A DNA stretch of 4,182 nucleotides from the IMG/VR virus record IMGVR_UViG_2778261347_000020. One strand, written 5' to 3'. A program made the translations under genes and the position numbers. Under the pieces are notes generated by a model. That model saw only the letters and a program-made list of their open reading frames with translations. It searched no databases and was not told the origin of the DNA. The DNA is from a virus (Duplodnaviria; Heunggongvirae; Uroviricota; Caudoviricetes). Positions 1,514 to 4,182 of the stretch are shown in pieces (within the stretch, counting starts at the first letter, position 1; every line of letters starts with the position of its first letter).

Positions 1514-3790
1514 ATGCTCAATCAAGAACTGGAACTCAGTTTAAATATGGCTTTCGCCAGAGCGCGCGAGCACCGTCATGAGTTTATGACCGTCGAGCAC
1601 TTGTTACTGGCGCTGCTCAGTAACCCATCTGCCCGGGAGGCGCTGGAAGCGTGTTCTGTGGATTTGGTTGCGCTCCGTCAGGAACTGGAAGCCTTTATTG
1701 AACAAACCACACCCGTTCTGCCTGCCAGTGAAGAGGAGCGCGACACACAGCCGACGCTGAGTTTTCAGCGTGTACTGCAACGTGCGGTCTTCCATGTCCA
1801 GTCCTCCGGTCGCAATGAGGTAACCGGTGCAAACGTTCTGGTCGCTATCTTTAGCGAACAGGAGTCGCAGGCGGCATATCTGTTGCGTAAACATGAAGTC
1901 AGCCGTCTCGATGTGGTGAACTTTATCTCTCATGGCACGCGTAAAGACGAGCCGACACAGTCTTCTGATCCTGGCAGCCAGCCAAACAGCGAAGAACAAG
2001 CTGGTGGGGAGGAACGTATGGAGAATTTCACGACGAACCTGAATCAGCTTGCGCGCGTGGGCGGAATCGACCCACTGATTGGTCGTGAGAAGGAGCTGGA
2101 GCGTGCTATTCAGGTTCTCTGCCGTCGCCGTAAAAACAACCCGCTGCTGGTGGGGGAATCTGGTGTCGGTAAAACCGCGATTGCGGAAGGTCTTGCCTGG
2201 CGAATTGTTCAGGGCGATGTGCCGGAAGTGATGGCTGACTGTACGATTTACTCTCTCGATATCGGTTCTCTGTTAGCGGGCACTAAATATCGCGGCGACT
2301 TTGAAAAACGTTTTAAAGCGTTGCTCAAGCAGCTGGAGCAGGACACTAACAGCATCCTGTTTATTGATGAGATCCACACCATTATCGGTGCGGGTGCAGC
2401 GTCTGGTGGCCAGGTCGATGCGGCTAACCTGATCAAACCGTTGCTCTCCAGCGGTAAAATTCGCGTAATTGGTTCGACAACCTATCAGGAGTTCAGCAAC
2501 ATTTTCGAGAAAGACCGTGCTCTGGCGCGTCGCTTCCAGAAAATTGATATTACTGAACCGTCGATCGAAGAAACTGTTCAAATCATCAATGGCCTGAAAC
2601 CGAAGTATGAAGCGCACCACGACGTGCGTTATACCGCAAAAGCGGTGCGTGCAGCGGTAGAGCTGGCGGTGAAATACATTAACGATCGTCATCTGCCGGA
2701 TAAAGCCATTGACGTTATCGACGAAGCGGGCGCTCGCGCACGCCTGATGCCGGTAAGCAAACGCAAGAAAACCGTTAATGTGGCGGATATTGAGTCCGTG
2801 GTGGCCCGTATTGCGCGCATTCCAGAGAAGAGTGTTTCTCAGAGTGACCGCGATACCCTGAAAAACCTCGGCGATCGCCTGAAAATGCTGGTCTTCGGTC
2901 AGGATAAAGCCATTGAGGCGCTGACTGAAGCCATTAAGATGGCGCGTGCAGGTTTAGGTCACGAACATAAACCGGTTGGTTCGTTCCTGTTTGCCGGCCC
3001 TACCGGGGTCGGGAAAACAGAGGTGACGGTACAGCTTTCGAAAGCGTTGGGCATTGAGCTGCTGCGCTTTGATATGTCCGAGTATATGGAACGCCATACC
3101 GTCAGCCGTCTGATTGGTGCGCCTCCGGGATACGTTGGTTTTGATCAGGGAGGTTTGCTGACTGATGCGGTCATCAAGCATCCACATGCGGTGCTGTTGC
3201 TGGACGAAATCGAGAAAGCGCATCCGGACGTGTTCAATATTCTGTTGCAGGTGATGGACAACGGTACGCTGACCGATAACAACGGACGCAAAGCGGACTT
3301 CCGTAACGTGGTGCTGGTGATGACCACCAACGCCGGGGTACGTGAAACTGAGCGTAAATCCATTGGTCTTATCCACCAGGATAACAGCACCGATGCGATG
3401 GAGGAGATCAAGAAGATCTTTACACCGGAATTCCGTAACCGTCTCGACAACATTATCTGGTTTGATCATCTGTCAACCGACGTGATCCATCAGGTGGTGG
3501 ATAAATTCATCGTCGAGTTGCAGGTTCAGCTGGATCAGAAAGGTGTTTCTCTGGAAGTGAGCCAGGAAGCGCGTAACTGGCTGGCCGAGAAAGGTTACGA
3601 CCGGGCAATGGGCGCACGTCCGATGGCGCGTGTCATCCAGGACAACCTGAAAAAACCGCTCGCCAACGAACTGCTGTTTGGTTCGCTGGTGGACGGCGGT
3701 CAGGTCACCGTCGCGCTGGATAAAGAGAAAAATGAGCTGACTTACGGATTCCAGAGTGCACAAAAGCACAAGGCGGAAGCAGCGCATTAA
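1514..3790 (+). CDS. clpA: ClpA, ATP-dependent Clp protease ATP-binding subunit (AAA+ unfoldase, two nucleotide-binding domains), 758 aa
   Basis: ATG at 1514 preceded by SD GGGGGAGG (1501..1508); the ORF track's TTG at 1499 is an upstream in-frame extension, not the likely start. Walker A motifs GESGVGKT (2153..2176, Lys220) and GPTGVGKT (2996..3019, Lys501) are at the positions expected for ClpA D1 and D2. Stop TAA 3788..3790. Confidence 0.98.
2008..2020 (+). promoter_or_regulatory. clpA: Internal SD (GGAGG 2008..2012) plus in-frame ATG (2018..2020, Met169) for the N-terminally truncated ClpA65 isoform
   Basis: Codon 169 of clpA is ATG with a GGAGG 5 nt upstream; internal initiation at Met169 producing a 65-kDa ClpA form is established for E. 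coli clpA. Confidence 0.6.
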
Positions 3791-3815
3791 TCTGATTGTT
3801 AGGTAGGTTGGTCAA

Positions 3816-3852
3816 GTCCGTAATCTCGAAAGAGGTTACGGACTTTTTGTTT
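3816..3852 (+). terminator. Rho-independent terminator of clpA
   Basis: 12-bp stem gtccgtaatctc / gaggttacggac (one G.U) closing a GAAA tetraloop (3828..3831), followed by TTTTTGTTT (3844..3852); 26 nt after the clpA stop. Confidence 0.8.
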
Positions 3853-4001
3853 ATGGGGTGGAGGAGGTTCAGACCCTTTTTTAATGATGATGGTAAGTTG
3901 TTGATAATTAGTGCTGCGGGAAGGTAAGGATAAAAAAGGGTGCTGCAGGAGAATGGGATGGTTTTGCTTTATTAACAACGGGCTAAACGTGTAGTATTTG
4001 A
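3853..4001 (+). promoter_or_regulatory. AT-rich putative CRISPR leader upstream of the first repeat
   Basis: Non-coding, AT-rich, immediately 5' of the first consensus repeat; the degenerate repeat is at the distal end, consistent with this orientation. Promoter elements not confidently identified. Confidence 0.45.
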
Positions 4002-4089
4002 GTTCACTGCCGTACAGGCAGCTTAGAAATCGACGGGGTGCGGTAAAACCTTTGCGAACGCGTTCACTGCCGTACAGACAGATAAAATG
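4002..4089 (+). CRISPR. Type I-F CRISPR mini-array: repeat 1 GTTCACTGCCGTACAGGCAGCTTAGAAA (4002..4029), 32-nt spacer (4030..4061), degenerate terminal repeat GTTCACTGCCGTACAGACAGATAAAATG (4062..4089)
   Basis: Repeat 1 matches the E. coli/Yersinia-subtype I-F 28-nt repeat as I recall it, including the CTGCC-GTACA-GGCAG hairpin bound by Cas6f; spacer length 32 is typical for I-F; second repeat matches the first 16 nt then degenerates. No cas genes in the window. Confidence 0.85.
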
Positions 4090-4091
4090 CG

Positions 4092-4120
4092 AAAAAAAAG
4101 CTCGCACTTTCGTACGAGCT
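4092..4120 (-). terminator. Rho-independent terminator for a minus-strand transcript entering from the right
   Basis: On the minus strand: stem GCTCG..CGAGC with inner 2 bp and a GAAA loop, followed by eight U (complement of A-run 4092..4099). Position fits the terminator of a tRNA gene whose 3' end would lie at about 4133. Confidence 0.6.
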
Positions 4121-4132
4121 CTTCTTTAAATA

Positions 4133-4146
4133 TGGCGGTGAGGGGG
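4133..4146 (-). other. 14-nt stub identical to the 3' end of tRNA-Ser(GGA) (minus strand CCCCCTCACCGCCA); rest of the tRNA absent; candidate att-site core / integration junction
   Basis: TGGCGGTGAGGGGG on + strand is the reverse complement of the acceptor 3' strand, discriminator and CCA of E. coli tRNA-Ser(GGA) as I recall it; the sequence after 4146 has no T-arm (no GTTCGAATC complement). 4134..4152 also folds as a hairpin GGCGGT-gaggggg-ACCGCC. Confidence 0.4.
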
Positions 4147-4182
4147 ACCGCCTGAAATAAATCTGACTTAATCCAGGGGTGT

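What the first reader, a model, noticed from the sequence alone, without database searches (positions are those of the whole stretch)
3853..4089. Orphan type I-F CRISPR mini-array with leader and degenerate terminal repeat, no cas genes
One consensus I-F repeat, one 32-nt spacer and a decayed terminal repeat lie directly downstream of clpA. The clpA-infA interval is the known I-F CRISPR/cas locus in E. coli, and strains lacking the cas genes retain short arrays there. The relic can still matter if I-F Cas proteins are supplied in trans.
Basis: partly seen in the sequence, partly recalled or inferred. Interest (0 to 1): 0.45.

Follow-up and report, generated by a model that had tools for sequence, protein, structure and literature searches.

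The report
Orphan E. coli CRISPR array targeting cas3f
This is the well-known leftover type I-F CRISPR mini-array that most E. coli carry after clpA, and its single spacer matches the cas3f gene of the missing system, a published "anti-cas" arrangement, so the finding is real but ordinary.

Summary
Window 4002-4029 is an exact 28-nt type I-F repeat (Rfam CRISPR-DR4, 50 bits). A 32-nt spacer follows at 4030-4061, then a decayed terminal repeat at 4062-4089. A leader at 3846-4001 is about 93% identical to the leader next to cas1f in cas-positive E. coli. The window holds no cas genes, and the identical genome (E. coli 2013C-4538) has none between clpA and infA.

It matches E. coli cas3f exactly (allele of strain EC-JS426) or at 31 of 32 bases (allele of strain AHB12). 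The match has the correct 5'-CC PAM and covers the Walker A motif (STGCGKTFAN).

All 7 distinct orphan-array spacers I sampled hit I-F cas genes with 0-4 mismatches. Shuffled spacers and the spacers of cas-positive arrays have at least 11 mismatches.

The spacer is exact in 1589 of 5426 complete E. coli genomes. cas3f is present in only 241.

This is the anti-cas orphan CRISPR4 array described by Touchon & Rocha (2010) and Almendros et al. (2016).

One caveat: a G-to-A change breaks the hairpin of the terminal repeat, so crRNA maturation may be impaired.

Verdict: already known, low interest.

The parts
3814..3845 (+). clpA intrinsic terminator hairpin (14-bp stem followed by a T run). It marks the upstream limit of the CRISPR leader.
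   Evidence: Inverted repeat I1; terminator-like site.
3846..4001 (+). CRISPR leader of the CRISPR4.1 type.
   Evidence: Window 3791-4035 aligns at 93.1% to the region between clpA and the CRISPR array upstream of cas1f in strain AHB12 (hit H29; alignment A1). The last ~60 nt before the repeat are nearly invariant across 6 strains. Blocks shared with the paralogous CRISPR4.2 leader (GACCCTTTTT, TTGAT, AAAAAGGGT, TA[G/T]TATT) are retained. The sigma-70 consensus scan found no promoter.
4002..4029 (+). Intact type I-F repeat. It supplies the Cas6f hairpin and the 8-nt 5' handle CUUAGAAA of the crRNA.
   Evidence: Rfam CRISPR-DR4 50.1 bits; identical to the repeats of cas-positive loci; predicted hairpin of -8.6 kcal/mol with a 5-bp stem and 5-nt loop.
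4030..4061 (+). Single 32-nt spacer directed against cas3f (TCGACGGGGTGCGGTAAAACCTTTGCGAACGC).
   Evidence: 32/32 match to cas3f of EC-JS426 (L011 9001-9032) and 31/32 to cas3f of AHB12 (L002 16905-16936), both preceded by 5'-CC. The protospacer encodes STGCGKTFAN, the Walker A motif. The spacer is exact in 1589 of 5426 E. coli genomes.
4062..4089 (+). Degenerate terminal repeat. It should supply the 3' hairpin of the crRNA, but a G17A change disrupts the stem and the last 8 nt (ATAAAATG) have diverged.
   Evidence: 19/20 identity, then divergence. Predicted fold of only -1.4 kcal/mol, z=0.09. The same terminal repeat tail (ATAAAATG) is found in the K-12-like, O157:H7, B2 O6 and two-spacer arrays.
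4092..4127 (-). serW terminator. It forms the right-hand side of the junction where cas1f to cas6f lie in cas-positive strains.
   Evidence: Terminator-like site on the - strand. It is homologous to the sequence directly downstream of cas6f and upstream of serW in AHB12 (one search compared).

Best explanation
This is the orphan type I-F CRISPR array of E. coli, called CRISPR4.1-2 (Mojica group) or the CRISPR3 'anti-CRISPR' (Touchon & Rocha). This copy is the variant whose only spacer is an anti-cas3f spacer.

Shown here: the array, its leader, its orientation, the absence of cas genes at the locus, and a perfect protospacer with a CC PAM inside cas3f.

Inferred from published work on such arrays: the array is transcribed from its leader. 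If a cognate I-F cas operon enters the cell, the incoming Cas6f cuts the resident transcript into a 60-nt crRNA (8-nt handle, 32-nt spacer, 20-nt 3' hairpin). The Csy complex loads this crRNA and binds the cas3f gene of the incoming DNA next to its CC PAM. It then recruits Cas2/3 to degrade that DNA and primes the uptake of further spacers. The I-F system therefore cannot establish itself.

The same spacer may also be the trace of the autoimmune event that drove the loss of the cas genes. The two readings are compatible.
For: 1. Repeat identity with I-F: Rfam 50.1 bits, and identical to the repeats flanking cas1f-cas6f at the same locus in AHB12.

2. Protospacer match: 32/32 to cas3f in L011 and 31/32 in L002, on the strand that gives the 5'-CC PAM. 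The E. coli I-F PAM is GG on the leader-proximal side, equivalent to CC on the spacer strand (PMC3506596).

3. The one mismatch to the AHB12 allele is a synonymous TGC/TGT change at spacer position 12. The Csy complex does not base-pair every sixth position (bioRxiv 10.1101/453720).

4. All 7 distinct orphan-array spacers sampled (window, K-12-like, O157:H7, B2 O6, ATCC 8739, TUM10828) match cas1f, cas3f or csy3 with 0-4 mismatches. Each has a CC PAM against at least one allele. Shuffled spacers give 11-15 mismatches, and the 41 spacers of two cas-positive loci have at least 11 mismatches to their own operon.

5. Distribution among 5426 complete E. coli genomes: spacer exact in 1589; spacer plus terminal repeat plus terminator in 1550; cas3f in only 241 and never on a plasmid.

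6. The source genome has no cas gene between clpA and infA.

7. Literature: hypothesis in PMC2886076. Experimental interference and priming by native orphan arrays against plasmids carrying the I-F cas genes, and constitutive array expression, are summarised in PMC8616872.
Against: 1. The terminal repeat carries G17A. This turns the C9-G17 pair into a C·A mismatch and drops the predicted hairpin from -8.6 to -1.4 kcal/mol. Cas6f normally binds and stays on this 3' hairpin, so maturation of the only crRNA may be inefficient.

2. The consensus scan found no sigma-70 promoter in the leader.

3. No plasmid or phage record carries this protospacer. The PLSDB hits are mislabelled chromosomes or records of unclear status, and phages gave no match. 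A present-day mobile target is therefore not documented here.

4. I could not read Almendros et al. 2016, so I do not know whether this exact array variant was among those tested.

5. The high prevalence could reflect vertical inheritance alone.
Confidence: 0.85

Rival explanations
1. The array is an inert scar. A self-targeting spacer against cas3f was acquired, autoimmunity selected for deletion of the cas operon, and the mini-array now persists by vertical inheritance and slow decay with no present function.
For: The terminal repeat's hairpin is broken by G17A. The scan found no promoter. No plasmid or phage in the collections carries the target. Some orphan spacers are visibly decaying, such as the 28-nt truncated anti-cas1 spacer in ATCC 8739 with 5 mismatches. 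All orphan arrays sampled share the same terminal repeat tail and junction, which fits one ancient event followed by inheritance. The loss scenario was proposed by Diez-Villasenor et al. 2010, as cited in PMC2886076.
Against: Repeat 1, the spacer and the proximal leader are perfectly conserved in over a thousand genomes, while the rest of the intergenic region diverges by up to ~13%. Orphan arrays contain only anti-cas spacers, and several independent ones. Touchon & Rocha argue that spacers are normally lost quickly unless selected. Native orphan arrays were reported to cause interference and priming.
Confidence: 0.13
2. The array makes a Cas-independent small regulatory RNA, or is an unrelated repeat that resembles CRISPR by chance.
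For: None specific. Weak Rfam hits to MicC and Thr_leader overlap 4083-4175 on the minus strand.
Against: Those hits are far below their gathering scores (34 vs 90 bits, 24 vs 55 bits) and rest on the serW terminator hairpin. The repeat is an exact I-F repeat, and the spacer has a PAM-flanked protospacer in cas3f. The 102-aa minus-strand ORF across the array (3799-4107) has no Pfam match.
Confidence: 0.02

Closest known systems
Orphan anti-cas CRISPR4.1-2 arrays of E. coli (the 'CRISPR3 anti-CRISPR' of Touchon & Rocha 2010; Almendros et al. 2016, Nat Microbiol 1:16081)
   Same: Same locus (between clpA and serW/infA), same 28-nt repeat, same conserved degenerate terminal repeat, no cas-F genes, and a spacer matching an I-F cas gene with the correct PAM. 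This window is a member of that set.
   Different: Nothing essential. This variant carries only the anti-cas3f spacer. K-12-type strains carry only an anti-cas1f spacer (1433 genomes). Strain 2013C-3264 carries both, with anti-cas3f nearest the leader, so the window's array looks like a derivative that lost the older unit.
Complete type I-F CRISPR-Cas locus of E. coli (e.g. UTI89, AHB12, EC-JS426)
   Same: Identical repeats, a homologous leader (~93%), the same chromosomal position, a 32-nt spacer and the CC PAM rule.
   Different: The window lacks cas1f, cas3f, csy1-3 and cas6f (about 8.6 kb). The source genome also lacks the second array (CRISPR4.2) and its leader between serW and infA. The spacers of cas-positive arrays do not match cas genes.
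Single-spacer mini-arrays of phages and other mobile elements (reviewed in PMC8616872)
   Same: [quoted passage not shown]
   Different: This array is chromosomal and vertically inherited, and it targets the cas genes themselves rather than a competing element.

Membership tests
Type I-F CRISPR array (CRISPR4 repeat type; Rfam RF01317 CRISPR-DR4) | A 28-nt repeat matching the I-F consensus | tested here: met
   Repeat 1 scores 50.1 bits against a gathering score of 35. It is identical to 10 of 10 repeats flanking cas1f-cas6f in AHB12.
Type I-F CRISPR array (CRISPR4 repeat type; Rfam RF01317 CRISPR-DR4) | At least two repeats at a regular ~60-nt period with a ~32-nt spacer | tested here: met
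   Start-to-start spacing is 60 nt and the spacer is 32 nt. The second repeat is degenerate: 22 of 28 bases overall and 19 of the first 20.
Type I-F CRISPR array (CRISPR4 repeat type; Rfam RF01317 CRISPR-DR4) | A repeat hairpin (5-bp stem, 5-nt loop) recognised by Cas6f | tested here: inconclusive
   Repeat 1 folds at -8.6 kcal/mol. The terminal repeat folds at only -1.4 kcal/mol because of G17A. Whether Cas6f tolerates this is not testable here.
Type I-F CRISPR array (CRISPR4 repeat type; Rfam RF01317 CRISPR-DR4) | A protospacer flanked by the I-F PAM (5'-CC on the spacer-identical strand) | tested here: met
   CC precedes the protospacer in both cas3f alleles. The PAM definition is in PMC3506596.
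Type I-F CRISPR array (CRISPR4 repeat type; Rfam RF01317 CRISPR-DR4) | A leader homologous to that of arrays next to I-F cas genes | tested here: met
   93.1% identity over window 3791-4035 to the AHB12 CRISPR4.1 leader (hit H29).
[quoted passage not shown] | Adjacent cas1f, cas3f (cas2/3), csy1-3 and cas6f genes | tested here: not met
   There are none in the window, and none between clpA and infA in the identical genome 2013C-4538. The rest of that genome was not scanned.
E. coli orphan anti-cas CRISPR4.1-2 array | Located between clpA and serW/infA, with the conserved degenerate terminal repeat abutting the serW terminator | tested here: met
   The same junction is seen in the K-12-like, O157:H7, B2 O6 and B1 strains.
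E. coli orphan anti-cas CRISPR4.1-2 array | The spacer or spacers match cognate I-F cas genes | tested here: met
   0 or 1 mismatch to cas3f. The shuffled control gives 11-15 mismatches.
E. coli orphan anti-cas CRISPR4.1-2 array | The array is transcribed and elicits interference and priming against DNA carrying the I-F cas genes | not testable with these tools
   Reported for native orphan arrays by Almendros et al. 2016, as summarised in PMC8616872. The original paper is not held, and it is unknown whether this variant was tested.

The most novel reading that the evidence does not exclude
The anti-cas3f spacer may guard against I-F systems from many genera, not only the E. coli allele. Its protospacer is the Walker A coding segment, and it starts at the first base of a codon. 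The wobble sites therefore fall at spacer positions 3, 6, ... 30, and half of them (6, 12, 18, 24, 30) coincide with the crRNA positions that the Csy complex does not base-pair.

In one-genome-per-species data, 48 species carry CC plus codons for STGCGKTFAN, all within Cas3f homologues of 42-96% amino-acid identity. These include Yersinia pestis, Enterobacter, Serratia, Aeromonas and Zoogloea. They have 1-9 raw mismatches but only 0-5 at positions that pair. Nine have at most 2 such mismatches and none in the seed.

The register coincidence has a prior of 1 in 3, so it may be chance. The broken terminal hairpin could make the whole question moot.
Probability: 0.2. Interest if true: 0.4.

Novelty: already known. 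Interest (0 to 1): 0.15.

Why it matters
It matters little as a discovery. The orphan I-F array after clpA, and the fact that its spacers target I-F cas genes, have been published since 2010 and were tested experimentally in 2016. The array is present in a large fraction of E. coli.

It is still a good textbook case of a CRISPR array that works against CRISPR-Cas itself, and it helps explain why only about 4% of complete E. coli genomes carry I-F cas genes.

For annotation, three practical points follow. The array should be labelled as an orphan anti-cas CRISPR4 array. The 102-aa 'hypothetical protein' that some genomes call across it on the opposite strand is spurious. Anyone introducing an E. 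coli-type I-F system into such a strain should expect self-interference.

Tried and rejected
1. The sigma-70 promoter scan of 3700-4182 found nothing. Candidates picked by eye (TTGATA at 3901; TAGTAT at 3992) lack a good partner hexamer, so I make no promoter claim.

2. The Rfam E-value search gave weak MicC and Thr_leader hits on the minus strand at 4083-4175. They are far below their gathering scores and are explained by the serW terminator hairpin.

3. The minus-strand ORF 3799-4107 (102 aa) has no Pfam match and lies across the array. I judge it spurious.

4. I looked for the protospacer on mobile elements. PLSDB gave 7 exact hits. Five are in records of 0.7-4.9 Mb labelled as plasmids, and two are in ~74-kb single-cell records that I did not inspect. 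Phages gave none. No natural mobile carrier of the target was found.

5. ARAGORN finds no tRNA in the window. The 14 nt at 4133-4146 are only the 3' end of serW.

6. Almendros et al. 2016, Sternberg et al. 2012 and Dudley 2025 are not held. The strains tested and the tolerance of Cas6f to stem mismatches therefore rest on a review and on my own recollection.

7. I could not compute genome-by-genome co-occurrence of the spacer and cas3f, because the search tool lists at most 60 records. Three sampled genomes with an exact cas3f protospacer (hits H44, H67, H115) each have only that one copy.

Full report
**What is in the sequence**

The window is E. coli chromosome. It holds the 3' end of macB, then cspD (minus strand), yljB, clpS (1163-1483) and clpA (1514-3790), followed by 392 nt of non-coding DNA.

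The last 392 nt are 100% identical to E. coli strain 2013C-4538, a human stool isolate. Bases 1-356 of that stretch are conserved at 87-100% identity in 4957 of 5426 complete E. coli genomes.

After the clpA stop codon the features are, in order:
- an intrinsic terminator hairpin at 3814-3845;
- a 156-nt leader at 3846-4001;
- a perfect 28-nt repeat at 4002-4029;
- a 32-nt spacer at 4030-4061;
- a second repeat at 4062-4089, which matches 19 of the first 20 bases and then diverges;
- the serW terminator at 4092-4127 on the minus strand.

**Is it a type I-F array, and more than chance?**

Repeat 1 matches Rfam CRISPR-DR4 end to end at 50.1 bits, against a gathering score of 35 (E=5.5e-10). It is identical to all ten repeats of the two arrays that flank the annotated cas1f-cas3f-csy1-csy2-csy3-cas6f operon at the same locus in strain AHB12.

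The leader is homologous to the leader of the array next to cas1f in that strain, at 93.1% over window 3791-4035 (hit H29). It keeps the short blocks that the two paralogous I-F leaders share.

The spacer TCGACGGGGTGCGGTAAAACCTTTGCGAACGC matches cas3f of AHB12 at 31 of 32 positions, and cas3f of EC-JS426 at 32 of 32. In both it lies on the strand that places 5'-CC immediately upstream. That is the E. coli I-F PAM, described as GG on the leader-proximal side of the complementary strand (PMC3506596).

Two hundred shuffled versions of the spacer find nothing better than 11 mismatches in the cas operon.

The protospacer is in frame and encodes S-T-G-C-G-K-T-F-A-N, the Walker A motif of the Cas3f helicase.

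The single difference from the AHB12 allele is a synonymous TGC/TGT change at spacer position 12. The Csy complex does not base-pair every sixth position (bioRxiv 10.1101/453720).

**The pattern is general**

I extracted the arrays from a K-12-like strain, O157:H7, a B2 O6:K2:H1 strain, ATCC 8739, TUM10828 and a two-spacer strain.

All seven distinct orphan-array spacers match cas1f, cas3f or csy3 with 0-4 mismatches, and each has a CC PAM against at least one allele. The 41 spacers of the two cas-positive loci have at least 11 mismatches to their own operon, which is chance level.

All orphan arrays share the same terminal repeat tail (ATAAAATG) joined to the serW terminator.

Strain 2013C-3264 carries the window's anti-cas3f spacer nearest the leader and the K-12 anti-cas1f spacer behind it. 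The window's array therefore looks like a derivative that lost the older unit.

Counts among 5426 complete E. coli genomes:

| Feature | Genomes |
|---|---|
| Window spacer, exact | 1589 |
| Spacer + terminal repeat + terminator (at least 80% coverage) | 1550 |
| K-12 anti-cas1f spacer | 1433 |
| cas3f present (never on a plasmid) | 241 |

In the source genome there is no cas gene anywhere between clpA and infA, and no second array between serW and infA.

**Mechanism**

Shown here: the identity of the array, its orientation, the absence of cas genes, and a PAM-flanked target in cas3f.

Taken from the literature:
- Touchon & Rocha (2010) proposed that these residual arrays act as an 'anti-CRISPR' that blocks invasion by a functional I-F system (PMC2886076).
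- Almendros et al. (2016) reported that native orphan arrays, which are constitutively expressed, cause interference and primed adaptation against plasmids carrying the I-F cas genes (summarised in PMC8616872).

Inferred for this copy: incoming Cas6f would cut the transcript into a 60-nt crRNA. The Csy complex would bind cas3f on the incoming DNA, and Cas2/3 would degrade it.

The alternative or additional history is that the spacer caused autoimmunity and selected for loss of the cas genes (Diez-Villasenor et al. 2010, cited). This is compatible with the present function and cannot be separated from it here.

**Caveats**

- The terminal repeat has G17A, which breaks the C9-G17 pair. The predicted hairpin falls from -8.6 to -1.4 kcal/mol. 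Cas6f normally stays bound to that 3' hairpin, so maturation of the sole crRNA may be inefficient.
- The same A is present in the K-12-like array. O157:H7 instead has two changes that keep G·U pairs, and the B2 strain keeps the intact stem.
- The consensus scan found no promoter.
- No plasmid or phage record carries the protospacer.
- I could not read the 2016 paper to see which arrays were tested.

**An extension that may be new**

A degenerate search for CC plus the codons of STGCGKTFAN found 48 species representatives. All hits lie in Cas3f homologues of 42-96% amino-acid identity.

The protospacer starts at the first base of a codon, so half of the wobble sites coincide with the unpaired sixth positions. 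Raw mismatches number 1-9, but only 0-5 fall at pairing positions. Nine species have at most 2 such mismatches and none in the seed.

This suggests reach beyond E. coli, at least for priming. The register coincidence has a prior of one in three, however, and the idea is untested.

**Verdict**

The feature is a member of a published and experimentally studied class that is present in more than a quarter of complete E. coli genomes. Novelty: already known. Interest: low.

Noticed in passing
window 4133-4182; L001 20343-40392 and L010 9399-49930: serW is not intact after the array. Only its last 14 nt (TGGCGGTGAGGGGG, minus strand) are present at 4133-4146, and foreign DNA starts at 4147. In the identical genome 2013C-4538 this is one end of a ~60.5-kb genomic island bounded by that 14-nt direct repeat, with the intact serW at the far end next to infA. 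The island encodes a tyrosine integrase, a type I restriction-modification system with DarT/DarG embedded, an Ag43-family adhesin, CbtA/YeeU toxin-antitoxin, an antirestriction protein, an 'enterotoxin' and sugar-utilisation genes.
   Followed up: partly
window 3799-4107, minus strand: A 102-aa GTG-start ORF runs antisense across the leader and array and has no Pfam match. Longer versions are annotated as 'hypothetical protein' over the array in some RefSeq genomes, for example WP_077698801.1 in TUM10828. It is almost certainly a spurious gene call.
   Followed up: partly
L009 5913-6180 (E. coli TUM10828): This orphan array has the anti-cas3f spacer duplicated in tandem, followed by two further spacers that match cas1f and cas3f (0-1 mismatch to the better-matching allele, CC PAM). 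Its terminal repeat is more decayed (GTTCACTGTCGAACAGGCAGATAAAATG).
   Followed up: partly
L007 1059-1086 (E. coli ATCC 8739): The anti-cas1f spacer is shortened to 28 nt by a 4-nt deletion, which shows spacer decay within an orphan array. In the same record clpA is annotated as a partial pseudogene.
   Followed up: no
L002 20500-21423 (E. coli AHB12): In this cas-positive strain csy2 is annotated as a pseudogene with an internal stop, so its I-F system may be inactive.
   Followed up: no
L008 1043-1178 (E. coli LB19b): An element annotated 'RtT sRNA' lies between the orphan array's terminal repeat and serW, lengthening the interval by about 350 nt. A BLK16 derivative and GMF054 show the same annotation.
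   Followed up: no
L012-L059 (48 species representatives): The CC PAM plus the Walker A coding segment of cas3f is conserved across Cas3f homologues down to 42% amino-acid identity. Half of the synonymous sites fall at crRNA positions that are not base-paired, which leaves 0-5 effective mismatches to the window's spacer.
   Followed up: partly
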